This document shows positions 4,931-59,434 of a stretch of 64,000 bases of DNA, one piece after another. This DNA comes from Patescibacteria group bacterium (GTDB taxonomy: Bacteria > Patescibacteriota > Patescibacteriia > UBA9934 > GWF2-40-263). Made by a program: the position numbers and the translations under genes. How positions within the stretch are numbered: the first letter of the stretch is position 1; each line of letters opens with the position of its first letter. The notes under the pieces are model-generated. The model had not been told where the DNA came from and did not search any database. It worked only from the letters and a program-made list of their open reading frames with translations. Location of the stretch: contig JBBTRQ010000019.1 in NCBI GenBank assembly GCA_038065075.1, positions 9,456 to 73,455 of the forward strand, read 5' to 3'.

Positions 4931-5285
4931 CGACATGGCTCAAAGAGGAAAAAGCCGGATCCCGGACCTGACCCCAAAATCGGCAGGATCAAAAAACCAT
5001 CGGCACATGACCGTTGGTTTTTTGTGACTCCACTGAACTAAATTTGGCTCACGGAAGTCGGGTACTGGTTGCCCAGTACGCAGTTTGGACGGAAATCCAG
5101 TCGGAACCGGAGAATCGTCCTCACGTTGCTGCACCCAGTCCGCCGTCGCTCTAGCGAGCTATGGCGGATTTTCAAGGTTTACCGCGGGGTCCTCGCGTTG
5201 CCTCCGAAGAAACAACGGTTCTAGACCCTAAGCCATTGATTTGCCCAAATTAGTTCCATGGAGCTATTTCTAGTGTAGCAAATTA

Positions 5286-23477: not shown

Positions 23478-23606
23478 ACAGGACGATTATACCAAAAAAC
23501 GAGGCAGAGTGCCTCGTTTTGACGCCCCTTAAAGGGGCTGTGAAGTAGATTATTCACAGGGCCTTTCCTGCCCGCCATAGCTTCAGCGACGGCGGGAGGC
23601 CCGTTT

Positions 23607-24110
23607 CTACTGTGCGCAGATTCCCGCTTCCATACCATCTGGCGTGGCACAATTCACTCCCGCCTGAAGTCCGACCGGTGTGAGAGCATTCTCAAGTTCA
23701 AAATGGATCACGTACGATTCCCCTTCTTTCTGAACGCTGTAGCAAAACGCTCGACGCGAAGGCTCACCGCACGTCACGATTCCCTCAAGTCCGTCCTCGT
23801 ACGTTCCTGGGACGACGCGCAGATACGTCGACTCAGCCGTTGAACAATCCCCGCCGAACCCCTCGGAGCCTAAGCAGGTACTTTGCGTCACGTCGCCCAA
23901 TGGCAGAAGCTCACCATCGGGATAGGCGTTCGCCTCATTGAAGTAATCCTCCAGTGCGGACTGGACGATGCGCACGTTGGCGAGGCGCGAGGCATCCCGC
24001 TGTTTGGACCGTGCCGCGTTGACAGCCAGCGCCGCGAACACGACGACGAGCGCGATGATCGCGATGACGACCAGGAGCTCGACGAGGGTAAACCCTTGTT
24101 GTTTTTTCAT
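23607..24110 (-). CDS. Type IV pilin / pseudopilin
   Basis: Prepilin leader plus N-methylation motif KKQQGFTLVELLVVIAIIAL. Confidence 0.8.
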   Translation of the reverse strand: MKKQQGFTLVELLVVIAIIALVVVFAALAVNAARSKQRDASRLANVRIVQSALEDYFNEANAYPDGELLPLGDVTQSTCLGSEGFGGDCSTAESTYLRVVPGTYEDGLEGIVTCGEPSRRAFCYSVQKEGESYVIHFELENALTPVGLQAGVNCATPDGMEAGICAQ

Positions 24111-24520
24111 AAAGATGTTTTCTCTTCTAAGAGACGTTTTACTTTTTTGACGGCTTCAGATGGAACGAAGTGACCCTTGAGAAGATAGCTATCGACTCCG
24201 GCTTCCTGTGCCTTGAGCAGGGTCTTACGGTCGCCGAGCTTTGCCAAACCGACGATCAGCGTACCGGCTGTCTTGGGATCCGACCGCAGACCGGCGATAA
24301 AACCCGTCGACTCGACCAGCGGCTCCAGGTCCACGATGATGACGTCCGGGTGTACTCGCTTGAGTCGTTTGATGGCGCCCGCGAGGGTCTCTTCCACCCA
24401 CACCTTCCACCCGGCGCTTTCAAATCGATTCGCGTAAATACCGGCATAGTACGCGTCTTGATCAAGCATGAGCAGAGACTTCTTTGCCATACTATTCGAT
24501 CTCTCGCATCGCCAGACCAA
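24107..24520 (-). CDS. Stand-alone response-regulator receiver domain (PilH/PilG-like)
   Basis: CheY-like pattern (LMLDQD...VIIVDLE...K) and ~135 aa, embedded in the pilus operon. Confidence 0.55.
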   Translation of the reverse strand: MVWRCERSNSMAKKSLLMLDQDAYYAGIYANRFESAGWKVWVEETLAGAIKRLKRVHPDVIIVDLEPLVESTGFIAGLRSDPKTAGTLIVGLAKLGDRKTLLKAQEAGVDSYLLKGHFVPSEAVKKVKRLLEEKTSL

Positions 24521-25625
24521 CCGCCACGCTCATGCGCGGGCCGATTTCTTCCAGGACGCTTGCGAGATCTTGTGGAAAGACGACGCGTGCCCAGGGGTCG
24601 CCACGGTAGACGTTGAGGTTGAGCGTCTGCGCCAAATACTCCGTCACGCGCGGCAAGTGAGATGAGCCACCCGTCAAAATAATCTTCTCCACCTTCTTGA
24701 TCAGAGCGAGCTCCATGCCTGCGTACAACTGGAACGCAAATCGAATCTCGTTGATGAGCGGAAGCATGAGCACCTCTAACACCTTTGGAAGATCGCCCGT
24801 GAGTCCCGAGCCTGTCGCTGAAGCGGTGCCCAGGTCGCGCTTGATACGCTCGGCATCCTCTTCTGACAAAGACATCTGTTGCATCACCGCGCGCGTGACG
24901 GTGTCCCCTCCCAACTGGATCGAACGCGACACAAACGGAATCCCCTTCTCCACGATCATGATCGTCGTGCGCTGTGAGCCGATATCAATGACCATGATGG
25001 CCCCTTTGTCTTTTCCAACGAGCGCGCGAACAAGCGCGAGCGATTCCGTGTCGATGGCTTGAAGGTTGAGCTTCGCCGCTTTAAAAATTTCGATGTACTT
25101 CTGGATGAACGACTTGGCCGACCCCGTGACCATCGCGCGAAACTGCTTTTGCTTCCCCTTTTCCATCTCCCCACCCGCCATAGCTTTAGCGACGGCGGGT
25201 TCCCCCTTTTTTCCTTTCTCGGGTTTCTTTTCCTCGTCCAAATACGTCGTCTGGATAATCATCTCGGAAAGGGGCAGTGGCGCGAGCTTCCCAACCTCTG
25301 CGTCCACGGCAGCCTGTTTCGCCCGCGCGTCTTTTCCGTCGGTGAGTGAAAGAATCGTCGCAAACACTCGCGAGGTCGGAAGCGCGGCCATCGCGGAAGT
25401 GGATTTGGTTCCGGCTTCCTTGCACACGCGCGCGAGCAACTCGCCGGTTCGCTTAGGCTGGTCAAACAAAGACTCTCCTGCTTCTTCAACGGGAATCTCC
25501 GCGTATCCGTACGTCATCAAAATGGGCCGACCCTTCTTTGCCTCAAACTCGACGACCTTAATACTGCTAGCGCCGATGTCGACCCCCAAAAAACTTTTTG
25601 GCTGTTTCTTTCCGAACAAGCCCAT
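24492..25625 (-). CDS. pilM: Type IV pilus assembly ATPase-fold protein PilM (actin/FtsA-like)
   Basis: 'FLGVDIGASSIKVVEF' N-terminal actin-fold motif. Contains an in-frame repeat-family-B insertion (GEPAVAKAMAGGE). Confidence 0.75.
   Translation of the reverse strand: MGLFGKKQPKSFLGVDIGASSIKVVEFEAKKGRPILMTYGYAEIPVEEAGESLFDQPKRTGELLARVCKEAGTKSTSAMAALPTSRVFATILSLTDGKDARAKQAAVDAEVGKLAPLPLSEMIIQTTYLDEEKKPEKGKKGEPAVAKAMAGGEMEKGKQKQFRAMVTGSAKSFIQKYIEIFKAAKLNLQAIDTESLALVRALVGKDKGAIMVIDIGSQRTTIMIVEKGIPFVSRSIQLGGDTVTRAVMQQMSLSEEDAERIKRDLGTASATGSGLTGDLPKVLEVLMLPLINEIRFAFQLYAGMELALIKKVEKIILTGGSSHLPRVTEYLAQTLNLNVYRGDPWARVVFPQDLASVLEEIGPRMSVAVGLAMREIE
25174..25199. repeat. Repeat family B copy, inside pilM and in frame
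   Basis: CCCGCCATAGCTTTAGCGACGGCGGG. Family consensus is CCCGCCGTCGCT-N-AGCTATGGCGGG. Other copies at 5140-5167, 16122-16148, 23571-23596, 52585-52610, 53247-53278, 54923-54952. Confidence 0.65.
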
Positions 25626-25647
25626 AGGTAGGAACAGTATAACACAA

Positions 25648-26052
25648 TTAACACCTCTGTTCATCGAGACATTTGTTCACGAGCGCGTCGGCTTCCTTGT
25701 TCTTCTCGCGACGCACGTGCGTGAACGACACGTGGTCAAATTTGTGCAATAAATTCTTCACTTCCAAAAACCGCTTGGCGATTTCCGGATCCTTCACGCG
25801 ATACTCGCCCTTGAGCTGTTTGGTTGCGAGCTCAGAATCCATAAAGAGCGAGACCTGCGTTGCCCCAAGCTTGGCGGCGCGCTCGAGTCCGATGATGATG
25901 GCGGTGTACTCGGCCTGGTTATTCGTCGTCTTGCCAAGATACTTCATCACCTCCGCGATCAGCTCCCCATCTGGCGACTTAATCACCGCTCCGCTCGCGG
26001 CCGGCCCCGGATTCCCTCTCGCCCCACCGTCTGTGTAAATGTGTACGTGCAT
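25648..26052 (-). CDS. rnhA: Ribonuclease HI
   Basis: 'HIYTDGGARGNPGPAASGAV...NQAEYTAII...DSELATKQL...' matches the RNase H fold catalytic residues. Start set at MHVHIY. Confidence 0.8.
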   Translation of the reverse strand: MHVHIYTDGGARGNPGPAASGAVIKSPDGELIAEVMKYLGKTTNNQAEYTAIIIGLERAAKLGATQVSLFMDSELATKQLKGEYRVKDPEIAKRFLEVKNLLHKFDHVSFTHVRREKNKEADALVNKCLDEQRC

Positions 26053-26065
26053 AAATTGCCCCCCG

Positions 26066-26141
26066 TCATTGCGAGGAGGCCATAGGCCGACGAAGCAATC
26101 CTCAAAGATTGCTTCGCTCCCTTCGGTCGCTCGCAATGACG
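26066..26141. repeat. Repeat family C copy (~75-bp long imperfect palindrome)
   Basis: GTCATTGCGAGGAG...GACGAAGCAATC...GATTGCTTCGC...CTCGCAATGAC. Other copies at 52522-52585, 63137-63204 (in frame in uvrA), and a partial copy at 49094-49139. Confidence 0.65.
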
Positions 26142-26144
26142 AGA

Positions 26145-27944
26145 CTAGTGAGTTTGTAAATCTACAATACGAATTTGGAGCTGTCGGTTGCCGTTCCATT
26201 CGTTCACCTGAATCTCGAAGGCGACGTCGATCTGTGCGCCGTACGTCAACTTCGTGATCCAGCTCCCAAATCCAAATCCAATCGCCTCCACCAGTTTACC
26301 AGTTGCCGAAGCTAAACGCAGTTTAAGATGTCCACCGTCACGACCGACCGTTGAAAACGCGGCCACGCTCACGTTGCGCGAGACGAACACCGGAACAGGA
26401 TTCCCCGTTCCAAACGGATGAAAGGCCTGAAGCTCGTCGAACAGCTCCCAGGTAATTTTCTCGAGCGGAATCTCTGCGTCGATCGTGAGTCGCGGTTCGA
26501 GATCCTCTGGCTTCAGTTCTCTCGCGGCAAATTCTTTCATCATCTCCATGGCCTTGTGGAATCGCTCCTCGCCGCTCACGGAAAAACCGCACGCCTGCGG
26601 ATGGCCGCCGAACTTGTCCAAAAACTCGCTGGCATAGTGAAGGGCCTTGGTTACATCAAACCCCTCGATACTCCGACCTGAACCGACAAACTTCTCCCCG
26701 TCTTGTCCCACAACCAATACCGGTCGGTGATACTCGTTCATCAATTTTCCGGCGACGAGACCGACGAGCCCCGCGCCCCAACCTTCCTGATACGCAACGA
26801 TCAACGATTCGCCGATGGCCTCGCCAATCTGCTTCTTTGCCTGCTCAAACATGAGCTGTGAGGCCTTCTGCCGCTCGACGTTGAGTTCATGAAGTCTCAT
26901 CGCCAGCGCTGTCGCGCGCACGTCATCCTCTTCGACGAGCAGATCAAGCGCTTCGCTGGCATGTGTCATGCGACCAGCGGCGTTCAAACGTGGACCAATC
27001 TGGAACCCGATAGAAACCGTGTCGAGCTCCCCAAGTTTTGAACCGGACACGTCGAGGAGTTTCTGAATACCTTTGCGGCGTGTCTTGTTGAGGACGAGGA
27101 GTCCATACTTCTCAAGCACGCGATTCTCACCACGCAGGGGCATCACGTCCGTCACGGTCGCGATCGCCACCAGATCGAGGAGCCATTTCTCATGACCATC
27201 AGGAAATGCCCCTCCACGATTTCGAGCCTCGACAATAAGAGCGCTCGCCAGCTTGAACGCCACGCCCGTTCCGCACAGATGCTTGTTGGGAAACGTTTCG
27301 CCTGGCACCAACGGGTGGATGAGAATGGCGGAAGTCGGGAGCTGTGCGGGCATGGTGTGATGATCACAAACGATCGTGTCGATCCCCAGCGTGGCGCCGC
27401 GGTCGATGGCCGGCTTGTTCGAAATCCCGCAGTCGACCGTGATGACCAGCTCTGTGTTCTCGTGTTCGTTCAAATGCTCGATCGTCTCAATAGACATCCC
27501 ATATCCTTCTTTCTCGCGGTGCGGGATGTACGTCGTGATCTTGGTTTCGTCAAAAGAAGAGATTGCTTCGGTCCCGCCACGCTTCGCTCGCGGCTTCGGC
27601 GTACTCCCTCGCAATGACACAGAACGTAACGCCCGGCAAATCTCCCGCAGGGTCGTGACGAGCACGGCCGTCCCGCACGTGCCGTCCGCATCGTAGTCGC
27701 CGTGAATCGTGATGACCTCAGCCCGCTCGAGAGCTTGGAACACACGCCCCACGGCCCGTTTCATGTGTAAAAAAAGCTCGGGACCAAACGTGTCCCGGCT
27801 CCAATCTGGTCCCAAAAAAATATCCATCTCTCCTTGCGTCTTGAGACCCCGATTCCAGAGCAACTGCAAAATAACGTCGTCGAGTTCAGGAAACTGACGT
27901 TGCACGTCTTGTGAGACTGGTTCCTGAACCATCCAACGTTTCAT
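26145..27944 (-). CDS. recJ: Single-stranded-DNA-specific exonuclease RecJ
   Basis: DHH motif (ITIHGDYDADGTCGTAV) and DHHA1 domain. An extra ~25-aa segment (STPKPRAKRGGTEAISS) resembles a repeat-family-D insertion. Confidence 0.85.
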   Translation of the reverse strand: MKRWMVQEPVSQDVQRQFPELDDVILQLLWNRGLKTQGEMDIFLGPDWSRDTFGPELFLHMKRAVGRVFQALERAEVITIHGDYDADGTCGTAVLVTTLREICRALRSVSLRGSTPKPRAKRGGTEAISSFDETKITTYIPHREKEGYGMSIETIEHLNEHENTELVITVDCGISNKPAIDRGATLGIDTIVCDHHTMPAQLPTSAILIHPLVPGETFPNKHLCGTGVAFKLASALIVEARNRGGAFPDGHEKWLLDLVAIATVTDVMPLRGENRVLEKYGLLVLNKTRRKGIQKLLDVSGSKLGELDTVSIGFQIGPRLNAAGRMTHASEALDLLVEEDDVRATALAMRLHELNVERQKASQLMFEQAKKQIGEAIGESLIVAYQEGWGAGLVGLVAGKLMNEYHRPVLVVGQDGEKFVGSGRSIEGFDVTKALHYASEFLDKFGGHPQACGFSVSGEERFHKAMEMMKEFAARELKPEDLEPRLTIDAEIPLEKITWELFDELQAFHPFGTGNPVPVFVSRNVSVAAFSTVGRDGGHLKLRLASATGKLVEAIGFGFGSWITKLTYGAQIDVAFEIQVNEWNGNRQLQIRIVDLQTH

Positions 27945-29812
27945 GAATCTCGTTTCAGTACTTTTAGGTAGGCGTCTGTTGGAATGCTGACACGCCCTTT
28001 TCCAAGCGCGGCCATCTTTGCCTTTCCTTTTTTCTGTTTCTCGAGAAGCTTGCGCTTACGCGTCACGTCGCCGCCATAGAGGCCGGCTGTCACGTCTTTA
28101 CGCATCGCGGAAATCCGTTCCGAGGCGACGACTTTACCTCCCACGCTCGCTTGCAGTTTGATAACGAAATTCTGACGCGGGATCGTGTCCTTCAACACCG
28201 CGGTGATACGCCGCCCGGCTCGATCTGCTTCGTCGCGGTAGACCAGGGTGGAAAAAGCGTCCACCGGTTCTTCCGCAACCAAGATGTCCATCTTCACCAC
28301 GTCGGCCGGTCGGTAATCAATCACCTCGTAGTTGAGCGACGCGTAGCCAGCCGTGATGCTTTTGAGTTTATCGTAAAAATCCACGATGATCATGGCAAGC
28401 GGAATCTGATAGTGGAGAATGGCACGATCGCCAGCGAGATACTCGGTTGTCTCATACAACCCCCGTCGTTCCTGCATGAGCTGCATAATGGCGCCGATGT
28501 AGGAACTGGGACTGACAATATCGACCTTCACCCATGGTTCACGAATGACCTCGATGTGCGAGGGGTCGGGAAGCTCAAGCGGACTCTTGATCACGATAGT
28601 CTCACCGCGGCGCAGAACCACCTCATACGCCACAGACGGCACTGTCACGACCAGACTCATGTTGAACTCACGCTCAAGTCGCTCTTTGAGAATCTCCAGG
28701 TGCAACATGCCCAGCAGTCCACAACGGAATCCAAAACCCAGCGCCGGCGAGTGCTCGGACTCATAGACCAACGCGGAGTCGTTTAATTTGAGACGCTCAA
28801 TCGCTTCGCGCAAACGATGGAAATCATCACCCTCCTGCGGAAAGACACCGGCGAACACCATCGGTTTGACTTCCTTATAGCCAGGAAGCGCAGGCGGGAG
28901 ATGATCAGCAGGAACGGTAATGGTGTCACCAACTCGACAACCGCTGAGATCCTTGAGTCCGGTGACGATGTACCCAATTTGTCCAGCCTCTAACGTATCA
29001 GCAGATTTGAGAGCCCCCGGCGTGATCGCCCCGGTCTCAAGCACCTGAATGTCGGCGCCGGTGGCGATCATCTTTACCTTTTTGCCTTTGTGCAGGGCGC
29101 CGTCGACGACACGGATATATGCCATCACTCCTCGGTAGTCGTCGTAGAACGAATCAAAAATGAGGGCACGCGTAGGTGCGGCAGGGTCGCCAGACGGAGG
29201 TGGAAACCGTTGGACGATCGCATCAAGCAATTCCATCACCCCCTGTCCCGTCTTTCCACTCACCGCCAAAATCTCCTCGGGCTTACACCCGATAAGGGAC
29301 ACGATCTCAGCCGTGCGCGCTGGGATATCCGCCGCCGGCAGATCAATCTTGTTGAGGACGGGAATGATCTCGAGGTTCTCCTCAAGTGCGAGATACAAGT
29401 TTCCAATCGTCTGCGCCTGCACGCCCTGTGTGGCGTCGACGAGCAAGATCGCTCCCTCCACGGCCGCAAGAGACCGACTCACTTCGTAATTGAAGTCAAC
29501 GTGTCCCGGTGTGTCGATGAGGTTCAGGATGTATGTATCGGGGGGTACTTGCCGATCCAGATGGGATCCCTCGACTCGCTTCGCTCGCTCGGGATGACCC
29601 CCGCCAGAATACTTATAACCCATTCTGGCAGGGGTCAGCTTAATCGTGATCCCGCGCTCGCGTTCGATGTCCATGGAGTCGAGGATTTGCGCCTTCATGT
29701 TGCGTTTGTCTACCGCGCCGGTCAATTCCAAAAGCCGATCCGCGAGGGTCGACTTTCCATGATCGATGTGGGCGATGATACAGAAGTTTCGAATGTGCGC
29801 TTGATCGGCCAT
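27941..29812 (-). CDS. lepA: Elongation factor 4 (LepA)
   Basis: G-domain motifs AHIDHGKST and DTPGHVDF plus a LepA-specific C-terminus. Carries an in-frame repeat-family-D insertion (SGGGHPERAKRVEGSHLDRQVPP) between G1 and G3. Confidence 0.9.
   Translation of the reverse strand: MADQAHIRNFCIIAHIDHGKSTLADRLLELTGAVDKRNMKAQILDSMDIERERGITIKLTPARMGYKYSGGGHPERAKRVEGSHLDRQVPPDTYILNLIDTPGHVDFNYEVSRSLAAVEGAILLVDATQGVQAQTIGNLYLALEENLEIIPVLNKIDLPAADIPARTAEIVSLIGCKPEEILAVSGKTGQGVMELLDAIVQRFPPPSGDPAAPTRALIFDSFYDDYRGVMAYIRVVDGALHKGKKVKMIATGADIQVLETGAITPGALKSADTLEAGQIGYIVTGLKDLSGCRVGDTITVPADHLPPALPGYKEVKPMVFAGVFPQEGDDFHRLREAIERLKLNDSALVYESEHSPALGFGFRCGLLGMLHLEILKERLEREFNMSLVVTVPSVAYEVVLRRGETIVIKSPLELPDPSHIEVIREPWVKVDIVSPSSYIGAIMQLMQERRGLYETTEYLAGDRAILHYQIPLAMIIVDFYDKLKSITAGYASLNYEVIDYRPADVVKMDILVAEEPVDAFSTLVYRDEADRAGRRITAVLKDTIPRQNFVIKLQASVGGKVVASERISAMRKDVTAGLYGGDVTRKRKLLEKQKKGKAKMAALGKGRVSIPTDAYLKVLKRDS
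29564..29600. repeat. Repeat family D copy, inside lepA and in frame
   Basis: GGGATCCCTCGACTCGCTTCGCTCGCTCGGGATGACC. Other copies at 18733-18770, 44121-44180, 44251-44298, 60914-60962, with diverged copies in dus (40447-40490), rimK-like (41645-41682) and recJ. Confidence 0.65.
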
Positions 29813-30320: not shown

Positions 30321-31352
30321 CTACCAGATCGCCGCGGCCAGTGCCTCGGGGGTGAGGATGGTGTTGCGTCCCAAGTCCGGACAACCGAAGTCCAAGAGAC
30401 AGGGGGCATAGCAGTCGGACGATCTTGCCGGACACTGTGTGCGGTTCTTGGAAACCAGCAGTCCCTTGCCATCATCCACGGGGATGACCGCGTCGACCAC
30501 TTCCCAGAAGTCCGTAAGCGCAAGCTCCAGCTGACCATCCGGCCAGCTCATGGCGTGCAGGCAGCCGCCTCCGCGGGTGCCATCCACGACCAAGGTGTCC
30601 CACTGCCCCACGAACAGGGTGTTTCCTGTGAAGATAAGTGCGCGAATCTCTCCGCGTGAGTGAGCGGTGAGCTCCGGCCTGTGGCGTGCCGCTCCAGTCC
30701 TCACGTCCACCAGGTGGATCTGTCCGCCTTGTGTCCCACACAGAAGCTCTCCCTTAGGCGTGAAGGTGAGAGCCCAGATGCTGGAGTCCAGCCGGAGGCT
30801 ATGGAGAGTATGGAATCTGCCATCTCCCTGCCTTGAGAGGATCTTCAGGTATCCATCCCACATCCCCACCGCCAGGATGGAACCGTCTGAAGAGAATGCC
30901 AAGCGCAAGATCTGACCCTCAAACCCCTCGAGGCACCGGAAGGTATCGCTCCCGGGATATCTCAAGAAGAGCACATTCTCGTCACCCCCTGTGGCAAGGA
31001 TGCCGTCCTGGGACAGGGCGAGGTGGTTGACAGACCAACTGGAGCTCACAATCGGTTCACCTCTTTGGCACAGATACTCCACATCCCACTCACGCAGGGT
31101 GTGGTCGTGGCTGCACGAGTAGAGGGTGCGGCCATCAGACGAGAGCGCGAGGCCGGCTACACTGTCGGTATGCCCTTCAAGGACACTACAAACTTCCCCG
31201 GTCTCCACACTCCACAGATGGATACGAGGATCCGCGTTGAATCCCCCGCCCGCCAGTGTCTTCTCGTCCTGGGACAGAGCCAGGCACCAGATCCAGCTAT
31301 TGTGCCCCCTGAACAATCGCCGAGTGGTCGGCTCGGAAACGATGCGGGTCAT
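30321..31352 (-). CDS. WD40 beta-propeller protein (7 repeats), paralog 1, with a conserved Cys-containing C-terminal tail
   Basis: Repeated GH...WD units (GHTDSVAGLALSSDGRTLYSCSHDHTLREWDV etc.). Start set at MTRIVSEPTTRRLF, preceded by AAAGGAGACCACC. C-terminal tail is YAPCLLDFGCPDLGRNTILTPEALAAAIW. Confidence 0.7.
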   Translation of the reverse strand: MTRIVSEPTTRRLFRGHNSWIWCLALSQDEKTLAGGGFNADPRIHLWSVETGEVCSVLEGHTDSVAGLALSSDGRTLYSCSHDHTLREWDVEYLCQRGEPIVSSSWSVNHLALSQDGILATGGDENVLFLRYPGSDTFRCLEGFEGQILRLAFSSDGSILAVGMWDGYLKILSRQGDGRFHTLHSLRLDSSIWALTFTPKGELLCGTQGGQIHLVDVRTGAARHRPELTAHSRGEIRALIFTGNTLFVGQWDTLVVDGTRGGGCLHAMSWPDGQLELALTDFWEVVDAVIPVDDGKGLLVSKNRTQCPARSSDCYAPCLLDFGCPDLGRNTILTPEALAAAIW

Positions 31353-31478
31353 GGTGGTCTCCTTTGAATGAACGTCTTGACCATGAAAGGTCGATGGCTC
31401 GCAGGGGCGAGCGTCAACCTCTCGTGGAAAAGGCCTAACGAGTTGCGTGTCGCTAGGCATGTGGTGGTAGTGCCCGTT
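31353..31478 (-). repeat. Conserved terminator/leader module, copy 1
   Basis: On the minus strand: terminator hairpin GCCTAGCGA..TCGTTAGGCC + TTTTCC, then hairpin GCTCGCCCCTGCGAGC, then AAAGGAGACCACC-ATG. Near-identical copies at 32511-32645, 35310-35457, 36490-36590. Confidence 0.7.
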
Positions 31479-32510
31479 CTACCACCTCGCCGCGGCTCGT
31501 GCCTCGGGAGTGAGGATGGTGTGGCGTCCCAGATCCGGACAACCGAAGTCCAAGAGACAGGGGGCGTAGCGGTCGGGCGACTCGGCCGGACTTTGCGTGC
31601 GGTTCTTGGAGACCAGCAGACTCTGGCCACCATTCACGGGGATGACCGCGTTAACCCATCCCCAGAAGTCCGTAAGTGCAAGCTCCAGCGCACCATCCGG
31701 CCAGCTCACGGCGTGCAGGCGACCGCTTCCGCGGGTGCCATCAGCGACCGAGGTGTCACACTGCCCCACGAGCAGGGAGTTTCGCGTGAACGCGAGCGCG
31801 TGGATCTCTCCGCGTGTGTGAACGGTGAGCTCCGGCCTGTGGCGTGACACTCCCGTCCTCACGTCCACCAGATGGATCTGTCCGCCCTCTGTCCCACACA
31901 GAAGCTCTCCCTCCGGCGTGAAGGTGAGAGCCCAGATGATCGAGTCCAGCTGGAGGCTGTGGAGAGTCTGGAATCTGCAATCTTCCTGCCTTGAGAGGAT
32001 CTTCAGGTGTCCATCCCACATCCCCACCGCCAGGATGGAACCGTCTGAAGAGAGCGCCAAGCGCAAGATCTGACCCTCAAACCTCTCGATACACCGGAAG
32101 GTATGGCTCCCGGGGTTTCTCAAGAAGAGCGTCTTCTCATCACCCCCTGTGGCAAGAGTGCCGTCCTGGGACAGGGCGAGGTGGTTGAAAGGCTGCTTCG
32201 AGCGCAAAGTCGGTTCACCTCTTTGACGCAGATGCTCCATGTCCCACTCGCGCAGAGTGTTGTCGTGGCTGCACGAGTAGAGGGTCTTGTCATCAGGCGA
32301 GAACGCGAGGCCGGTGACACTGTCTGTGTGCCCTTCAAGGACACCACGAACTTCTCCGGTCTCCACGCTCCATAGGTGGATCCGAGGATCTGCTCCTGAA
32401 CCCCCGCCCGCCAGTGTCTTCCCGTCTTGGGACAGAGCAAGGCGCCAGATCCAGCCGAGGTGTCCATTGAACAATCGCCGAGTGGTTGGCTCGGAGATGG
32501 TACGGGTCAT
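31479..32510 (-). CDS. WD40 beta-propeller protein, paralog 2
   Basis: Same architecture and C-terminal tail as paralog 1 (MTRTISEPTTRRLFNGH...). Confidence 0.7.
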   Translation of the reverse strand: MTRTISEPTTRRLFNGHLGWIWRLALSQDGKTLAGGGSGADPRIHLWSVETGEVRGVLEGHTDSVTGLAFSPDDKTLYSCSHDNTLREWDMEHLRQRGEPTLRSKQPFNHLALSQDGTLATGGDEKTLFLRNPGSHTFRCIERFEGQILRLALSSDGSILAVGMWDGHLKILSRQEDCRFQTLHSLQLDSIIWALTFTPEGELLCGTEGGQIHLVDVRTGVSRHRPELTVHTRGEIHALAFTRNSLLVGQCDTSVADGTRGSGRLHAVSWPDGALELALTDFWGWVNAVIPVNGGQSLLVSKNRTQSPAESPDRYAPCLLDFGCPDLGRHTILTPEARAAARW

Positions 32511-32645
32511 GATGGTCTCCTTTGAATGAACGTCTTGACCATGAAAGGTCGATGACTCGCCAGGGGCGAGCGTCAACCTCTCGTGGAAAAGGCCTAGCGA
32601 GAGCGTGTCGCTAGGCGTGCGGCTTGTGAGCCACGTGGTTGGTGA
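32511..32645 (-). repeat. Conserved terminator/leader module, copy 2
   Basis: See copy 1. Confidence 0.7.
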
Positions 32646-35309
32646 CTAATTCGTCACCGATGGCTTAACCGGCGGGATGACCTGCATACGGATGTCAGAC
32701 TCCTCTCCGTGCTGCTTGAGCACCTCCAGCGCCCACTCCACCTCGTCCCGCGCGTTGGCGGGCAGAAGCGCTCTGGAGCGCGCGTTGGCTACGGCCAACA
32801 GGGTCATGCGGGCGATTTGCGTTTGCTGTGCCTGCGGCATGTAATCGCCGATGGCCCAGAGCAGATCATCACGATTCACGCCAGGCTCCCCGTGCGTGTC
32901 GGCGTGCCGGACGATCACCTCGATGTCCGCGCCGGAGAGGCGCTTGGTCTTGTCGGCGAACTCCGTGAAGTCCGTGATGTCCGTGGTGAACCCGCCGCGC
33001 CGAATCATCACGCGGAACAAGGCTTCACGGGTCGTGGCATCGGGCATGAGCACCGGGATGACTTCGTCGCTTCGACCGGCACGCAGCATGGCCGCGTCGA
33101 TGAGATCCGGTCGGTTGCTGGCCGTCATGTAGAACACGCGGCCTCGGATGGTCGGATCGGCGAGGAAGGTCATCCACGCCTGACGCGTCCGGTTGGACAC
33201 ACCCGAGTCGCCGCTGAATCCATCGCGTCCGCCGTCGTTCTGATCGATCTCGTCCTGGAATACCACGCACGGCGCCATCAACCTTACGGCCTCCAGCTGG
33301 TCGTGCACGTTGCGCTCCGATGAGCCAACCCACATCTGTTGAGTGTGGCGAGGGATCAGCAGCAAGAGACCGGAGGCGTGCGCCAACGCCGTCGCCAGCG
33401 CACTCTTGCCGGTACCGGGCGGTCCCAGCAGTGCACACCCCATGGGCACTCGCGAGAGGTCGCCCGTGCGCATGCGCTCGCAGACGTCCAGGAGAAACGT
33501 CTTGACGCCGTCGAGTCCGGCGATGCCGTCAAACCCGTAGGGTGGGTCGATCACCTCAAACAGATGCCCGAAGCGCTCGTTGAGGATGACCAGCCTGTGT
33601 GCGACCACGTCCTTGTGGGACAGCGGCTGGTTGCCGGCCTGCGCGCGACGAAGCAGACGGCGCAGATCGCGGTAGCCCATGTTGCCGGTCAGACGAGCCA
33701 GCTCGACAACCCCCATGGTGGGCGTGTCGAACAACGATTCGTCGTCACGGGTTGCCGTGAGCCGTCGATGCTGCTCGCGCAAGTCGGTTAGTGTCTCGCT
33801 GGAGAGGTTCGGAAGACGAGCCTTGCTGTCTCGCAGTGTCTGCGCCAACTGCTGCGCGATCCGTGTGTGGTCCTCTTGCAGCTCCTGCAACCGACTCACA
33901 GCCGCTGTCGTCAGCCGATCGAGCTCGCTTTGCGCCTCTCGGATCGACGCCGGCTCGCTCGAGCACAGCGCCTCCAAGTTCCGTTGCAGCTCCTCCAGAC
34001 ACTCTGTTGCCTGCTTTCGAGCAAACGGCTTCACCGTTAGGCAAGCGACGTTGTCGGCATTGGCCACGCAGATGTCGGCGTCGTTTGCCTTGAAGCGCAT
34101 CACCAGCAATCCGCCCTCAAAGAAGAATTGGGCGGGGATGCTGGAGTTACGCGAGTCGGTGACCGGCTTGTTCGGGTTCGCCCCGCTGGCGAACTGCACT
34201 CCGCTACGTCTCGTCGCGCTCTTGAGCACAGTGAAGCGCTGTGCCCCACCACGCGAGTCCTGGACACTGACCATATCGCCGGGCGCCAAATTGGCCCAGC
34301 GAGCCTCGTCAAGAGACGCGTCATCGGTCAGGAGAGGATCGCTCCGCAGCTGTGCGCCAAGGGCATCGATCTGCGCTTGGAGATTCGCCAACTGCCCGGC
34401 ATTATCCGCGTTGAGGGACTGCCGCAGAGCCGTAAGCGAGGATCGGCACCGCTTCACGGCCGCCAGATGCCCCTTGTACTCACCGTCTTGCTTGAGGGAC
34501 TTGCGTAGGGCGCTGTGCCGTTCGTCTGCCGTCCGAGCCGCAACGATGTCGTCATTCGCTCGCGCTTGCAGTACTTGGATCTCCTCGGCGATCTGCATCT
34601 CCAGCTCTTGCTGGCGCTGCAGGCCACTGTCCGTCCTACACACCCGGCGCAAGTAAGCCTCACGCTCCGCCTGAAGGGGGGGATCCACCTTGATCAAGCA
34701 GATGGGCGAGCTGCTGTCGCGCAGCATCTGGGGCAACAAGCCGGAAGATCTGGCGCTCATGAGCACCAAATGGCCGACGATCCCAAAGGCATCGTCTTCC
34801 GCCATTCGCCGGATGAGCAACGGCGTACGCGACGACATGGCGCCGGCAGGGGAACTGTCGTCCAGACAGTAGGTGTCGACATTGGGCAGAATCACCGTGA
34901 AGCGAACCGAATCGCCGACGGCGTGCCGCAGCACGTTCATGATCTGCGACAAAGCCCCGGTGGGATCCGTCGTCTGCTCGACCCTCGACGCCACCTGCGC
35001 TCGCGCGCGGGCGATGGGATCGTCAGCTTCACCGGCAGACTGCCGGTTCTTCTTAAGCAGCTCCCCGAACGCCTCATGATCTTCGTCTCTGGGGAAGCTC
35101 AAGCCCAGAGCCGGATCAAACACGACGAAACGACGATCGGGCTCCTGCCTGACCAACGCGTCGAGTACCAGCCGGTGCCAAGGCAACAGCGCCATGGATG
35201 ACGCATCGGTCGTATTGGGGAAGCCGTCTGCGACGTTCCCGTCAAACAGGAAGCAGAAATGGCACCTGGCGCGCTCCTGCTCGAAGGTTCTCATCCAAGA
35301 TGGAGTCAT
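32646..35309 (-). CDS. Large (≈887 aa) protein: N-terminal unknown region + extensive coiled coils + C-terminal classical AAA ATPase domain
   Basis: Walker A GPPGTGKS, Walker B VVFQDEID, second region of homology RPDLIDAAMLRAGRSDEVIPV. Heptad-rich Q/L/A segments lie upstream. Start set at MTPSWMRTFEQ behind GGAGAAGAG. Confidence 0.7.
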   Translation of the reverse strand: MTPSWMRTFEQERARCHFCFLFDGNVADGFPNTTDASSMALLPWHRLVLDALVRQEPDRRFVVFDPALGLSFPRDEDHEAFGELLKKNRQSAGEADDPIARARAQVASRVEQTTDPTGALSQIMNVLRHAVGDSVRFTVILPNVDTYCLDDSSPAGAMSSRTPLLIRRMAEDDAFGIVGHLVLMSARSSGLLPQMLRDSSSPICLIKVDPPLQAEREAYLRRVCRTDSGLQRQQELEMQIAEEIQVLQARANDDIVAARTADERHSALRKSLKQDGEYKGHLAAVKRCRSSLTALRQSLNADNAGQLANLQAQIDALGAQLRSDPLLTDDASLDEARWANLAPGDMVSVQDSRGGAQRFTVLKSATRRSGVQFASGANPNKPVTDSRNSSIPAQFFFEGGLLVMRFKANDADICVANADNVACLTVKPFARKQATECLEELQRNLEALCSSEPASIREAQSELDRLTTAAVSRLQELQEDHTRIAQQLAQTLRDSKARLPNLSSETLTDLREQHRRLTATRDDESLFDTPTMGVVELARLTGNMGYRDLRRLLRRAQAGNQPLSHKDVVAHRLVILNERFGHLFEVIDPPYGFDGIAGLDGVKTFLLDVCERMRTGDLSRVPMGCALLGPPGTGKSALATALAHASGLLLLIPRHTQQMWVGSSERNVHDQLEAVRLMAPCVVFQDEIDQNDGGRDGFSGDSGVSNRTRQAWMTFLADPTIRGRVFYMTASNRPDLIDAAMLRAGRSDEVIPVLMPDATTREALFRVMIRRGGFTTDITDFTEFADKTKRLSGADIEVIVRHADTHGEPGVNRDDLLWAIGDYMPQAQQTQIARMTLLAVANARSRALLPANARDEVEWALEVLKQHGEESDIRMQVIPPVKPSVTN

Positions 35310-35457
35310 GACTCTTCTCCTCGTGTGGTGTGGGTTGGAAATTGAATGAACGTCTTGACCATGAGGGGTCGATGGCTCGCAGGGGCGAGCGTCAACCTCT
35401 CGTGGAAAAGGCCTAGCGAGCAGCGTGTCGCTAGGCATGCGGTGGGTAGTGCCCGTT
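35310..35457 (-). repeat. Conserved terminator/leader module, copy 3
   Basis: See copy 1. Confidence 0.65.
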
Positions 35458-36489
35458 CTACCACACCGCCGCGGCCAGTGCCTCAGGGGTGAGGATGGTG
35501 TTGCGCCCCAGACCCGGATAGCCAAAGTCCAAGAGACAGGGGGCGTAGCGGTCGGACGATCTTGCCGGACACTCCATGCGGTTCTTGGAAACCAGCAGTC
35601 CCTTGCCACCATTCACAGGGATGATCACGTCGACCCCTCCCCAGAAGTCCGTAGGGGCAAGCTCCAGCTGACCATCCGGCCAGCTCATGGCGTGCAGGCG
35701 GCCAAGTCCGCGGGTTCCATCCGTAATCGAAGTATCCTGCTGCCCCACAAGCAGAGCGTTTCGCGTGAACGCAAGCGCGCAGATCTCTCCACGTGTGCGA
35801 ACGGTGAGCTCTGGCCTGTGGCGTGACTCTCCCGTCCTCACGTCCACCAGGTGAATCTGCCCGCCTCCTGTCCCGCATAGGAGCTCTCCATCCGGCGTGA
35901 AGGTGAGCACCCAGATGCTTGAATCCAGCCGGAAGCGGTGGAGAGTCTGGAAGCTGCCATCTTCTTGCCTTGAGAGGACTCGCAGATGGCCGTAAGCCCT
36001 CCCCACCGCCAGGGTGGAACCGTCTGCAGAGAATGCCAGGCACCGGATCCAATTCTCGAACCCCTCGATGCGCTGGACGGTTTTGCTCCCGGGACGTCTC
36101 AAGAAGACAACGCCATCGCCACCTCCTGTGGCGAGTGTGCCGTCCTGGGACAGGGCGAGGTGACTGAGAGTACCCCTCGAACTCACAATCGGTTCACCTC
36201 TTTGGCGCAGATGCTTCACATCCCACTCACGCAGGGTGTGGTCGTAGCTGCACGAGTAGAGGGTGCGGCCATCATGCGAGAACGCGAGGCCGGTGACACT
36301 GTCTGTGTGCCCTTCAAGGACACCACGAACTTCCCCGGTCTCCACGCTCCATAGGTGGATACGAGGATCAAATCCTGAACCCCCGCCTGCCAGTGTCTTC
36401 CCGTCTGGGGACAGAGCAAGGCACCAGATCCAGCTGTTGTGTCCCCTGAACAATCGCCGAGTGGTTGGCTCGGAAACGGTACGGGTCAT
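35458..36489 (-). CDS. WD40 beta-propeller protein, paralog 3
   Basis: MTRTVSEPTTRRLFRGHNSWIWCLALSPDGKTLAGGG... with the same C-terminal tail. Confidence 0.7.
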   Translation of the reverse strand: MTRTVSEPTTRRLFRGHNSWIWCLALSPDGKTLAGGGSGFDPRIHLWSVETGEVRGVLEGHTDSVTGLAFSHDGRTLYSCSYDHTLREWDVKHLRQRGEPIVSSRGTLSHLALSQDGTLATGGGDGVVFLRRPGSKTVQRIEGFENWIRCLAFSADGSTLAVGRAYGHLRVLSRQEDGSFQTLHRFRLDSSIWVLTFTPDGELLCGTGGGQIHLVDVRTGESRHRPELTVRTRGEICALAFTRNALLVGQQDTSITDGTRGLGRLHAMSWPDGQLELAPTDFWGGVDVIIPVNGGKGLLVSKNRMECPARSSDRYAPCLLDFGYPGLGRNTILTPEALAAAVW

Positions 36490-36590
36490 GGTGGTCTCCT
36501 TTGAATGAACGTCTTGACCATGAAAGGTCAACGGCTCACCAGGGGCGAGCGTCGACCTCTCGTGGAAAAGGCCTAGCGAGTTGCGTGTCG
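36490..36590 (-). repeat. Conserved terminator/leader module, copy 4
   Basis: See copy 1. Confidence 0.65.
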
Positions 36591-51947: not shown

Positions 51948-52502
51948 TTAATCCTTCTCACCTCCCCCGAATACCGCCATCGCAATGACGGGAAGTGTCA
52001 CCCAAATCGCCCGTGCAATATCACTCATGAAAATCGTTTGCGTAAATGGCGAAAGAATGTTGGCGAGATCCGCGGGAAAAAATGAAAGTGTGACGCTAAT
52101 CAACAATCCGACGTGCAGGAACGAATAGATCATCACCTGCCAAAATTTTCCTTGTGAGGTCGCATGGCCAAACGCCTTCATGAGAGCGGAGTGCGACAGG
52201 AAGAAGAAGAGCAAGATGAACACGCCCAGGAACACCGAGACACGCAGTGCGAACGTATCATTGAGCGAGATGCCGGCGCTGTCCACGTCCGTCAAAAACG
52301 GCATGTAATTCACGATCGCGAGCGCCATGTAGATCGAGACCAGGATCACAATGATGCGATCACGTCCCAACGACACGCCGTAGATAAGCGACGCCACGAC
52401 AAAAAAGAGAATAATAAAAAGATCCCAGGTGGGCTCGAGCCAGTTCACGCTGTTGACCGCATTAAGGACGGTCTCCTGATCGAAAATCGCTGTTTGGAAC
52501 AT
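51948..52502 (-). CDS. CvpA-like membrane protein
   Basis: 4 TM helices, ~180 aa, CvpA-like topology. Confidence 0.35.
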   Translation of the reverse strand: MFQTAIFDQETVLNAVNSVNWLEPTWDLFIILFFVVASLIYGVSLGRDRIIVILVSIYMALAIVNYMPFLTDVDSAGISLNDTFALRVSVFLGVFILLFFFLSHSALMKAFGHATSQGKFWQVMIYSFLHVGLLISVTLSFFPADLANILSPFTQTIFMSDIARAIWVTLPVIAMAVFGGGEKD

Positions 52503-52646
52503 ATCCTCCTAAAGGTGCCTCGTCATTGCGAGGGAGCGTAGCGACCGAAGCAATCTTTCATCGAAGGATTGCTTCGCTGGCGCTCCCGCCGTCGCTAAAG
52601 CTATGGCGGGCAGGCGCAATGACACAGACTTGATGGAAACAGTATA

Positions 52647-53243: not shown

Positions 53244-53392
53244 AAACCCGCCGTCGCTCCATGAGGAGCTATGGCGGGCGGACAGCCCTCTTCAGGCTGC
53301 TTTGGTGGTGCTCTGACTATTTGACCGCCTCTTGGGAGTATGCCTTACTAGGGTCGCGCGTCGATTCAGGCGTGTGACAACCGGAGAGTAAC

Positions 53393-54850: not shown

Positions 54851-55000
54851 CGCAAGGATCGATCGCTCCCTCACGCCGCCTCCACTACGCACAGGGGCGG
54901 TCTTTATTTTGCAAACCAAAAACCCGCCGTCGCTCTAGCGAGCTATGGCGGGCGGGCAGCTTACTCGGCGCAGGCTAAAGCCTGCGGCTACCTGGGAGGA

Positions 55001-55369
55001 CTATTCCGCCATGGCGAGGGCGGGTTCGCCACCAGAGATATAGTTTGGCATCTCGGCCTCGACGAAGCCCAACATCTTCACGGACTTCGACACATGGTCG
55101 AGTGATTGGCTCTTGCGCGTCTCAAGTTCAAGGTTCTGATTCATGAGCGAAAGTTCATTGAGCTGTGTCTCGAGCTCGCGGATTTGATAGCCCTGCGAGA
55201 TCGACGCGTTCACCTGAATGATGTACGCCACAACCATGAGGGCGACGATCGCGAGGGAAACAATGTTTAACGCAACAACATGATTGCCGATCCACACACG
55301 CACGCTGATGCGGCGGGTGAGTTCATGCGTTGGCGAAAAAACAGCCGTTTGTATTGCAACTGGGGACAT
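55001..55369 (-). CDS. ftsL: FtsL-like cell-division protein
   Basis: Single TM helix plus coiled coil. Sits directly downstream of rsmH, as in dcw clusters. Confidence 0.45.
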   Translation of the reverse strand: MSPVAIQTAVFSPTHELTRRISVRVWIGNHVVALNIVSLAIVALMVVAYIIQVNASISQGYQIRELETQLNELSLMNQNLELETRKSQSLDHVSKSVKMLGFVEAEMPNYISGGEPALAMAE

Positions 55370-59338: not shown

Positions 59339-59434
59339 AGCTAAGCTGTAAACGTAATTTCTGGTAGCCGCAGGCTTCAGCCTGCGCCGAACGCGGGCTA
59401 ATGCCCGCGGCTACCGTTAACTCTAGCATTTCTT

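What the first reader, a model, noticed from the sequence alone, without database searches (positions are those of the whole stretch)
25174..25199. Family-B palindromic repeat inserted in frame in pilM
The 26-bp element CCCGCCATAGCTTTAGCGACGGCGGG lies inside the pilM coding region and is read as ...GEPAVAKAMAGGE... The intergenic copy between pilD and the pilin gene (23571-23596) would encode the same PAVAxAMAG peptide in one frame. This is a third repeat family that is tolerated inside a coding sequence.
Basis: seen in the sequence. Interest (0 to 1): 0.5.

Follow-up and report, generated by a model that had tools for sequence, protein, structure and literature searches.

The report
Mobile hairpin repeat inside pilM gene
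A 26-base hairpin-forming repeat has been copied into a floppy, dispensable loop of a pilus-assembly gene in an uncultured Uhrbacterium and is translated as about ten extra amino acids; in-frame insertions like this are known, but hairpins with the same stem sequence occur in many distant bacterial phyla.

Summary
CCCGCCATAGCTTTAGCGACGGCGGG lies at 25174-25199 inside pilM (minus strand) and is read as GEPAVAKAMAGGE.

It belongs to a hairpin family with seven copies in the window. The arms are conserved (CCCGCCGTCGCT / AGCTATGGCGGG) and the apex varies. Six copies are intergenic.

The pilM copy sits in a Lys/Glu-rich loop that varies greatly in length among orthologues and is predicted to be disordered. 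Of 120 orthologues, 119 lack it, including those 91-96% identical.

One orthologue from a different clade carries the element at the same place. Its empty-site relatives show an exact 30-nt insertion, so there were most likely two independent gains. The copy downstream of the pilin gene is also an insertion relative to a relative.

Exact arms also occur in at least 111 stretches of species-representative genomes from a dozen phyla. They often lie just after tRNA genes, once form helix P3 of RNase P RNA, and lie in frame in other proteins.

No transposase is linked to the element. The Y1 transposases of relatives are flanked by different repeats. No Rfam family or paper matched. The mobilising mechanism and the cross-phylum identity remain unexplained.

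The parts
25174..25199 (-). Hairpin element E, the copy inside pilM. The sense (minus) strand reads CCCGCCGTCGCTAAAGCTATGGCGGG and is translated PAVAKAMAG.
   Evidence: as RNA it folds to -16.1 kcal/mol, z -4.4
25167..25199 (-). Probable inserted unit: E plus the 3' tail TGGG (30 nt, 25170-25199), or E plus TGGGGAG (33 nt) if GGGGA is a target duplication.
   Evidence: By analogy with the exact 30-nt insertion (E + CGAG) seen in L001 against the empty sites of L125 and L126. The 3' tail consensus is C-R-R-G in 123 copies. No close empty site is available for the window lineage, so the boundary is inferred.
24492..25625 (-). pilM gene. The start at 25625 (MGLFGKK) is taken from the orthologues; the longest ORF runs to 25664.
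   Evidence: Pfam PilM_2 and FtsA; orthologue alignment; PDB 5EOX and 2YCH by sequence and by fold
25146..25241 (-). DNA for the hypervariable Lys/Glu-rich loop of PilM (about residues 129-160), which hosts the element.
   Evidence: Loop length varies from about 0 to 40 aa among 48 orthologues. pLDDT is below 50 for residues 132-158, between strands 122-128 and 161-170.
23571..23596 (-). E copy (loop GA) in the 3' untranslated region of the pilin gene.
23557..23613 (-). 57-nt insertion relative to L001 and L002 (ACAGTAGAAACGGGCCT-E-CAGGAAAGGCCCTG). It replaces the last pilin codon and supplies the stop codon (TAG, 23607-23609). It is followed by a canonical terminator.
   Evidence: alignment A3; sequence; fold -35.3 kcal/mol
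5139..5168 (+). E copy with a compensatory T...A closing pair (TCCGCCGTCGCT-CTAGCG-AGCTATGGCGGA). Intergenic, followed by TTTTCAAGG.
16122..16148 (+). E copy (loop CAG) between two convergent genes.
52585..52610 (+). E copy identical to the pilM copy, nested inside a larger palindrome of the GTCATTGCGAG family (52519-52625).
53247..53278 (+). E copy with an extended apex (CCATGAGG), preceded by AAACCAAAAA. Intergenic.
54923..54952 (+). E copy with an extended apex (CTAGCG), between convergent genes. On the minus strand it is followed by TTTTTGGTTT.
   Evidence: the terminator-like scan hit overlaps it

Best explanation
The element is one copy of a dispersed, REP-like hairpin repeat. The core is a 26-nt imperfect palindrome. 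The inserted unit is about 30 nt once a short 3' tail is included.

What is shown. The element was copied into pilM. The same unit was inserted without any other change at the equivalent place in a related Uhrbacterium. The target is purine-rich DNA that encodes a Lys/Glu-rich surface loop of PilM. That loop is predicted to be disordered, and its length and sequence are free to vary.

Why it is tolerated. A 30-nt unit is a multiple of three. In this orientation and phase it has no stop codon. It therefore adds PAVAKAMAG(G) to a loop that accepts almost anything, including other palindromes in other lineages.

What is inferred. The pilM copy is a passenger with no role in pilus assembly. The selected or propagated property of the family is the hairpin itself, in single-stranded DNA or RNA. 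Intergenic copies sit at gene 3' ends and after tRNA genes, often followed by a T-run. There they probably act as terminator or 3'-end-protecting hairpins. Copies spread by a trans-acting activity that has not been identified. Candidates are a hairpin-recognising single-strand DNA enzyme (HUH type) or microhomology-guided template switching. The Y1 transposase found in relatives is not that activity.
For: Seven copies in 64 kb, with inner arms identical in all seven and only the closing pair changed in one, against 0.19 expected. One copy has a compensatory T...A closing pair. In 28 of 30 distinct apical inserts of at least 5 nt the ends pair and extend the stem: mean 1.93 extra pairs, against 0.67 +/- 0.15 in shuffles. 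Of 120 PilM orthologues, 119 lack the segment. L001 (filled) equals L125 and L126 (empty) plus exactly 30 nt. The NJ tree places the two carriers in different clades, each surrounded by non-carriers. The pilin 3' copy is absent from L001 and L002. The loop is hypervariable and has pLDDT 32-36. The fold is PilM. Other palindromes occupy the same loop in L133 and L134. The same peptide is encoded in frame in a Saccharibacteria Mur ligase and a Verrucomicrobiota TIR/TPR protein. Six of the seven window copies are intergenic. A T-rich tract follows the element in 25 of 123 copies in one orientation and in 1 of 123 in the other.
Against: No mobilising enzyme was found. The window has no Y1 transposase. 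Only 1 of 111 loci with the element has one within 8 kb. The Y1 genes of relatives are flanked by unrelated GGGGTCAGGTCT inverted repeats.

Inserted lengths differ (30, 30 or 33, and 57 nt). The flanking direct repeats are short and unequal (GAG; GGGGA). This does not fit a classical transposase.

Two independent hits at the same codon are unlikely under random insertion. They imply target preference, strong filtering, or recombination.

Identical 24-nt arms in a dozen phyla are not what vertically inherited REP/REPIN populations show.

The simple terminator scan does not call the pilM or pilin copies.
Confidence: 0.75

Rival explanations
1. The hairpin is a functional RNA module with a conserved partner, for example a protein that reads the G+C stem and its 3x3 internal loop. 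Under this view sequence identity across phyla reflects constraint. New copies arise by retro-insertion or recombination of hairpin-ended RNA or DNA fragments such as tRNA 3' trailers. The pilM copy would be an accidental landing of such a module.
For: Both non-Watson-Crick positions are kept in all copies. Variants found nearby keep a purine-rich 3x3 loop (GAA/GAA, GUA/GUA). The element starts 4 nt after the called end of at least 12 tRNA genes of seven specificities in Bacteroidota and Patescibacteria. It forms P3 of an RNase P RNA, which also carries two related hairpins. UUCG-type apices occur.
Against: No Rfam family matches. Both orientations occur relative to transcription within the window. 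Occurrence among genomes is sporadic, and copy density differs greatly between related Uhrbacteria: 0-1 per 20 kb against 7 per 64 kb. The search for exact arms biases the sample towards apparent constraint.
Confidence: 0.12
2. The insertion matters for pilM itself. Either the PAVAKAMAG peptide changes the PilM loop, or the -16 kcal/mol hairpin in the mRNA tunes translation or decay of the pilM-pilin transcript. A third possibility is that it terminates antisense transcription: on the + strand the hairpin is followed by TTCCCCCTTTTTT.
For: The element landed at the same codon in two lineages. A second copy lies 1.6 kb away in the pilin 3' UTR of the same gene cluster. The hairpin is stable.
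Against: 119 of 120 orthologues manage without it. The loop is predicted disordered and is filled with unrelated sequence or other palindromes elsewhere. All neighbouring genes are on the minus strand, so no + strand transcript obviously needs terminating. In strain L002 the only pilM difference from L001 is a stem-breaking synonymous change in the element.
Confidence: 0.08
3. The segment is ancestral to this group of PilM proteins and was deleted in most lineages, so it is not an insertion.
For: A hairpin flanked by short direct repeats in slippage-prone purine-rich DNA is easily deleted. L004 has a much shorter loop consistent with deletion.
Against: It would need many independent losses on the tree. 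These include precise ones that restore the junction seen in the outgroup L125. The arms are identical to unrelated intergenic copies.
Confidence: 0.05

Closest known systems
REP elements (repetitive extragenic palindromes), including the GTAG- and CGTC-tagged super-families of Di Nocera et al. 2013 (PMC3733652)
   Same: It is a 20-40 bp imperfect palindrome with many dispersed copies, mostly just downstream of genes. Loops vary and have self-complementary inner parts. G-T pairs and fixed mismatches occur in the stem. Some copies lie inside genes and are read in frame. Some families are shared by distant taxa. As with CGTC REPs, no dedicated transposase is known.
   Different: There is no unpaired terminal GTAG or CGTC tag. 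CGTC lies inside the stem, and the conserved flank is a 3' C-R-R-G tail. Copies are singletons rather than dimers. No link to a RAYT gene was found. Its sequence strings and the peptide motifs searched were not found in that paper's supplementary tables. The window's other family (CGTCATTGCGAG...) does look like a CGTC-type REP.
Rickettsia palindromic elements (RPE; Ogata and colleagues, from my own knowledge and as summarised in PMC3733652)
   Same: Palindromic repeats inserted in frame in housekeeping protein genes, and also in RNA genes. They are tolerated because they land in surface regions.
   Different: RPE-1 elements are roughly 100-150 bp and restricted to Rickettsia. This element is 26-30 nt, has a different sequence, and occurs in many phyla.
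REPIN/RAYT systems (Bertels and Rainey; as described in the abstracts of 10.1101/2020.06.25.170514 and 10.1101/2024.10.14.618302)
   Same: Short hairpin repeats that replicate within a genome.
   Different: REPINs are doublets, are tied to a single-copy RAYT gene flanked by them, and are inherited vertically. Here copies are single hairpins, no RAYT is linked, and identical arms cross phylum boundaries.
Intrinsic (Rho-independent) terminators
   Same: A G+C-rich hairpin. In one orientation about a fifth of copies are followed by a T-run, notably after tRNA genes.
   Different: Terminator hairpins are not normally identical in sequence between genes or phyla. The pilM and pilin copies lack a U-tract in the transcribed orientation.

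Membership tests
REP (generic definition) | Imperfect palindrome of 20-40 bp able to form a stem-loop | tested here: met
   26-36 nt. RNA fold -16.1 kcal/mol (sense strand) and -13.5 kcal/mol (other strand).
REP (generic definition) | Many dispersed copies, mostly extragenic and near gene 3' ends | tested here: met
   Seven copies in 64 kb, six intergenic. The whole genome is not available.
GTAG / CGTC tagged REP super-families (PMC3733652) | Unpaired GTAG or CGTC motif at one end; CGTC stems start with A-T pairs and end with a CCA-like tail | tested here: not met
   The arms begin CCCGCC. CGTC lies inside the stem. The flank consensus is 3' C-R-R-G. Definitions.
REPtron / REPIN-RAYT | A RAYT (Y1 HUH transposase) gene flanked by the same repeats | tested here: not met
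   There is no Y1 homologue in the window. Y1_Tnp genes in relatives (L001, L127, L129, L132) are flanked by GGGGTCAGGTCT-type inverted repeats, matching the GGGGWSAS motif of the 'TIRYT' class, and not by this element. Only 1 of 111 loci has a Y1-like ORF. A RAYT elsewhere in the genome cannot be excluded.
MITE | Terminal inverted repeats plus a fixed-length target-site duplication, derived from a parent IS | tested here: inconclusive
   Flanking direct repeats are GAG (L001) and GGGGA (window). Both can also be read as no duplication plus a 4-nt tail. No parent IS was seen. At 26-30 nt the size is far below that of usual MITEs.
Rickettsia palindromic elements | In-frame insertion into protein genes at tolerated sites | tested here: met
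   PilM loop; Mur ligase and TIR/TPR protein elsewhere.
Rickettsia palindromic elements | RPE sequence families, about 100-150 bp, in Rickettsia | tested here: not met
   The element is 26-30 nt. The host is Candidatus Uhrbacteria, by the names of the homologues.
Intrinsic terminator | G+C-rich hairpin directly followed by a U-tract on the transcribed strand | tested here: not met
   This applies to the pilM copy. The sense strand continues UGGGGAGAUGG. Only the antisense strand has TTCCCCCTTTTTT. It is not called by the scan. Across the family the feature is met in 25 of 123 copies.
PilM (host gene) | Actin-like ATPase fold of PilM/FtsA, encoded in a type IV pilus gene cluster | tested here: met
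   Pfam PilM_2 E 2.7e-35. Foldseek to 5EOX and 2YCH, E 1e-24 to 1e-27, TM 0.6-0.76. The neighbours are a pilin and a prepilin peptidase.

The most novel reading that the evidence does not exclude
The 26-30-nt hairpin is a self-contained, horizontally spreading unit, among the smallest mobile units known. It would be mobilised in trans by a widespread activity that has not been identified. It would insert without a fixed target duplication at purine-rich sites, directly after tRNA acceptor ends and into the apices of existing helices, including RNase P RNA P3. That would explain why the same 24 arm bases occur in a dozen phyla. Alternatively, it is a conserved RNA module read by a near-universal protein.
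Probability: 0.2. Interest if true: 0.8.

Novelty: new variant of a known kind. Interest (0 to 1): 0.55.

Why it matters
For pilM itself the result is modest. It marks a loop of PilM as structurally dispensable. It also shows that in Uhrbacteria, whose genomes are small, palindromic repeats remodel even core proteins (PilM, RecJ, LepA). Annotators and structure predictors should be aware of this.

The wider point is the family. Hairpins with one fixed stem sequence sit after tRNA genes, inside RNase P RNA, in 3' UTRs and in protein loops, in organisms from Patescibacteria to Acidobacteriota. No transposase or RNA family is attached to it. If it is mobile across phyla, or bound by a common factor, it offers a tractable entry to an old question: what REP-like elements are for and how they move. 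The empty and filled sites are clean, and the unit is only 30 nt.

Tried and rejected
Rfam. The gathering-threshold search of the whole window and the permissive search of 52400-55100 found no family at any copy.

Literature by sequence. A full-text search for the four 12-mers returned only unrelated primer matches. No paper in the library links extragenic palindromes with Patescibacteria/CPR.

RAYT hypothesis. Relative L001 has a Y1_Tnp gene beside lepA. It and its homologues are flanked by a different inverted repeat, and their contigs hold 0-1 copies of the element. An HMM built from these proteins finds nothing in the window and one ORF in 111 loci. Rejected for this enzyme family.

Enriched neighbouring gene. 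All-against-all clustering of 1336 ORFs from 111 loci found no family in more than 5 loci. Small GIY-YIG ORFs occur in 5 loci but are not consistently adjacent. Rejected.

Isolate plasmids and phages. There is no true match in PLSDB or INPHARED. Nine IMG/VR contigs do carry the element.

Fixed target-site duplication. The repeats are unequal (GAG versus GGGGA), so this was not accepted.

GTAG/CGTC membership. Not met.

Assembly artefact. Rejected. The P0007 allele occurs in three independent assemblies, one of them with a SNP in the element.

Full report
**1. The observation**

The 26-mer CCCGCCATAGCTTTAGCGACGGCGGG is at 25174-25199. Allowing up to 3 mismatches, it occurs three times in the window: 23571-23596 (one mismatch), 25174-25199, and 52585-52610 on the other strand. 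None of 100 dinucleotide-preserving shuffles gave a match.

It lies inside the minus-strand ORF 24492..25664, which reads ...EKGKKGEPAVAKAMAGGEMEKGKQ.... That ORF is PilM:
- Pfam PilM_2, E 2.7e-35.
- The best solved relatives by sequence are P. aeruginosa and T. thermophilus PilM.
- The predicted structure matches 5EOX, 2YCH and 3JC8 (Foldseek E 1e-22 to 1e-27, TM 0.6-0.76), ahead of FtsA and MreB.
- The neighbours are a response-regulator-like gene, a pilin with an N-terminal methylation motif, and a prepilin peptidase.

Names attached to homologues place the organism in Candidatus Uhrbacteria, in the Patescibacteria/CPR.

**2. The family in the window**

A looser pattern shows that the conserved parts are the two arms, CCCGCCGTCGCT and AGCTATGGCGGG. 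They are separated by 2-8 variable bases (AA, GA, CAG, CTAGCG, CCATGAGG). This pattern gave 7 matches against 0.19 expected, six of them members of the family. A mismatch-tolerant scan adds a seventh family member at 5139-5168. Its outermost C-G pair is replaced by T-A on both sides, which is a compensatory change.

All seven copies keep the same two non-Watson-Crick positions: G.U and C.U on one strand, A.C and A.G on the other. As RNA the sense-strand version folds to -16.1 kcal/mol (z -4.4) and the other strand to -13.5 kcal/mol.

Six copies are intergenic:
- Between convergent genes: 16122 and 54923.
- In the pilin 3' UTR: 23571.
- Nested in a larger palindrome of another family: 52585.
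- In other spacers: 5139 and 53247.

Only the pilM copy is coding.

**3. Is it an insertion?**

I aligned 47 of the 120 best PilM orthologues with the window protein. The element falls between the conserved QTTYLDEE and KQKQFR motifs. This is a Lys/Glu-rich stretch whose length ranges from almost nothing to about 40 residues.

A motif scan of all 120 proteins found the peptide in only one, P0007 (KVEPAVAEAMAGEKV). The closest relatives of the window protein lack it: P0003 96%, P0002 93%, P0001 91% identity.

The AlphaFold model gives pLDDT 32-36 for residues 132-158, between two strands at 122-128 and 161-170. In the HMMER alignment this corresponds to a short loop of P. aeruginosa PilM (...DFEVQGLSARNPERVDVLL...). 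The site is therefore an expanded, disordered surface loop. From published PilM structures I take it to lie in the 1C-type subdomain. That assignment comes from my own knowledge and was not tested here.

**4. A second, independent insertion**

P0007 occurs in three independent assemblies. Its DNA (L001) differs from the empty sites of L125 and L126 by exactly 30 nt:
- Filled: GGTGGAG|CCCGCCGTCGCTGAAGCTATGGCGGGCGAG|AAGGTGG
- Empty: GGTGGAG|AAGGTGG (L125; L126 has GGGGGAG|AAGGTGA at the same junction)

This is shown.

In an NJ tree built without the loop columns, the window groups with P0003, P0001, P0002 and P0004. P0007 groups with P0015. Both clades otherwise lack the element. Two gains are far more parsimonious than one gain followed by many precise losses.

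Both insertions follow a K-G/V-E codon triplet, have the same orientation, and are in the same phase. In the window the unit is either E+TGGG (30 nt) or E+TGGGGAG (33 nt, with GGGGA repeated). No close empty site was available to decide between these.

In strain L002 the only difference from L001 across pilM is a synonymous, stem-breaking C-to-A change inside the element.

**5. Other gains and the tolerance of the loop**

The copy in the pilin 3' UTR is also an insertion. Relative to L001 and L002 the window has 57 extra bases: E with flanks that extend the hairpin. They replace the last pilin codon and supply the stop codon. They lie upstream of a conserved canonical terminator.

The PilM loop of other Uhrbacteria carries other palindromes. 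L133 has TCTGGCCTGAAGGCCGGATCCGGCTTAGCTGGA, read as SGLKAGSGLAG. L134 has SDPKIGSLPDRQAGG.

In the window, RecJ carries a 23-residue in-frame insertion from the GTCATTGCGAG-type family that three orthologues lack. LepA has repeat-like peptides at a variable site. The repeat in the RNase H ORF lies upstream of the real start codon.

**6. Distribution beyond this genome**

I scanned one genome per GTDB species for the exact arms with 0-12 bases between them. By record titles these include:
- Patescibacteria: Uhr-, Nomura-, Zambryski- and Vogelbacteria, Paceibacterota, Saccharibacteria.
- Verrucomicrobiota, Lentisphaerae and Kiritimatiellaeota.
- Planctomycetota.
- Bacteroidota.
- Alpha- and Gammaproteobacteria.
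- Desulfobacterota.
- Bdellovibrio.
- Acidobacteriota.
- Nitrospiraceae.
- Methylomirabilota.
- Fimbriimonadaceae.

Some hits lie in megabase contigs. Two lie in records not labelled as MAGs, presumably isolate genomes: Chryseolinea sp. H1M3-3 and Opitutaceae D2-102. Nine IMG/VR contigs carry the element. No isolate plasmid or phage record does.

Among 123 non-redundant copies:
- The apex is AA or GA in most.
- Longer apices nearly always pair at their ends: 28 of 30, with a mean of 1.93 extra pairs against 0.67 +/- 0.15 in shuffles.
- The 3' flank has the consensus C-R-R-G, with C in 89 of 123 copies.
- The 5' flank is purine-rich.
- A T-rich tract follows the element in 25 copies in one orientation and in 1 copy in the other.

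Because the scan required exact arms, it says nothing about how many diverged copies exist. Variants found nearby keep the CCCGCC/GGCGGG foot and a purine-rich 3x3 interior.

**7. Notable contexts elsewhere**

tRNA genes. In at least twelve loci the element begins 4 nt after the end of a tRNA gene as called by ARAGORN. By my reading of the sequences this is 5-6 nt after the discriminator base, with a spacer CCTTCG or CTTCG. The tRNAs are Ser, Met, Tyr, Val, Ala, Pro and Trp. The loci are from Bacteroidota, where the element is followed by CTTTTT, and from Patescibacteria, where it is followed by ATTCG. Two Bacteroidales loci have only a tRNA-Met 3' fragment followed by the element.

RNase P RNA. 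In a Deltaproteobacteria MAG the element is helix P3 of a class A RNase P RNA (263 bits). Two related hairpins occupy other peripheral positions of the same RNA.

Other proteins. The peptide PAVA(K/E)AMAG is encoded in frame in a Saccharibacteria Mur ligase, within the span of the C-terminal domain match. It is also encoded in a linker of a TIR/TPR protein of Oleiharenicola. In a Nomurabacteria gyrB it sits at the extreme 5' end, where it may instead be a 5' leader.

**8. What moves it?**

A Y1_Tnp gene lies beside lepA in L001. Some JGI records name homologues 'RayT'. Four such genes are each flanked by inverted GGGGTCAGGTCT-type repeats. This matches the GGGGWSAS motif of the 'TIRYT' class of Di Nocera et al.. 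They are not flanked by this element, and their 18-21-kb neighbourhoods hold 0-1 copies of it.

The window has no homologue, and 1 of 111 loci has one. No other gene family is enriched near the element.

The unequal inserted lengths and the short microhomologies fit two ideas. One is a hairpin-recognising single-strand enzyme that leaves no duplication. The other is microhomology-guided template switching from another copy. I cannot separate these.

**9. Comparison with what is known**

The closest description is the REP class as surveyed by Di Nocera et al. 2013 (PMC3733652). These are short imperfect palindromes, mostly downstream of genes. They have modular loops, sometimes lie in frame inside genes, and are sometimes shared by distant taxa. 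For CGTC REPs no transposase is known.

This element lacks their defining terminal GTAG or CGTC tag. Its sequence strings and the peptide motifs I searched for do not appear in their tables. The window's other family (CGTCATTGCGAG...) does look like their CGTC type.

In-frame palindromes are classic in Rickettsia (RPE), but those elements are several times longer.

I therefore file this as a new variant of a known kind. The pilM insertion is ordinary in principle. The family's fixed sequence across phyla and its precise placement after tRNAs and in RNase P RNA are not explained.

**10. Verdict**

- The best explanation is a passenger insertion of a REP-like hairpin into a disordered PilM loop (confidence 0.75).
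- Open questions are the mobilising activity, the reason for the recurrent hit at one codon, and the cross-phylum identity.

Noticed in passing
window 27540-27640 (within recJ, 26145..27944, minus strand; approximate): RecJ has a 23-residue in-frame insertion (RSVSLRGSTPKPRAKRGGTEAIS) that is absent from three orthologues. It derives from the other palindrome family (GTCATTGCGAG-type, resembling CGTC-tagged REPs).
   Followed up: partly
window 29500-29620 (within lepA, 27941..29812, minus strand; approximate): LepA has a variable segment (GGGHPERAKRVEGSHLDRQVPPD). Orthologues carry different repeat-like peptides at the same site, for example PSPRLRWTGWEGGGSEGRGG in L001.
   Followed up: partly
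window 26053-26199: The first 49 codons of the RNase H ORF (containing [20 protein letters not shown]) are missing from all orthologues. The real start is probably the M of MHVHIYTDGG, so this repeat copy is intergenic rather than coding.
   Followed up: partly
L036 2050-2508: A Deltaproteobacteria RNase P RNA has the exact element as helix P3. It also has two related hairpins (CCCGCCUACGCUUCGGCUACGGCGAG and CCCGCCGAAGCCUUGGCGAAGGCGGG) at other peripheral positions.
   Followed up: partly
L009, L020, L028, L050, L061, L063, L068, L085, L087, L101, L104, L105: The element starts 4 nt after the called 3' end of tRNA genes of seven specificities, in two distant phyla. L044 and L066 show only a tRNA-Met 3' fragment followed by the element, as at the attachment sites of integrated elements.
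   Followed up: partly
L001 3267-4109; L127, L129 and L132 at about 10001-10850: 280-aa Y1_Tnp genes of Uhrbacteria sit in different genomic contexts. Each is flanked by inverted GGGGTCAGGTCT-type repeats, matching the GGGGWSAS motif of the 'TIRYT' class. The window has one such 12-mer but no such gene.
   Followed up: partly
L133 and L134, pilM loop: Other Uhrbacteria carry different palindromic sequences in the same PilM loop (SGLKAGSGLAG; SDPKIGSLPDRQAGG). The loop is therefore a recurrent landing site.
   Followed up: partly
window 63705-63769: Rfam match to DUF3800-IX RNA (59 bits; gathering score 36.8).
   Followed up: no
window 30321-36531: Three paralogous genes of about 1.1 kb (83-91% DNA identity, 357-379 aa) flank a 988-aa gene that appears, by eye, to encode an AAA-type ATPase. 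The region has a higher G+C content (0.62).
   Followed up: no
L036, L044, L056, L087, L105: Small GIY-YIG-like ORFs recur in 5 of 111 loci that carry the element. They are often near tRNA genes but are not consistently adjacent to the hairpin.
   Followed up: partly
window 54965-54992 and 59363-59390: Another hairpin pair (CGCAGGCTAAAGCCTGCG / CGCAGGCTTCAGCCTGCG) has the same GC-UAAA/UUCA-GC apex style as the element.
   Followed up: no
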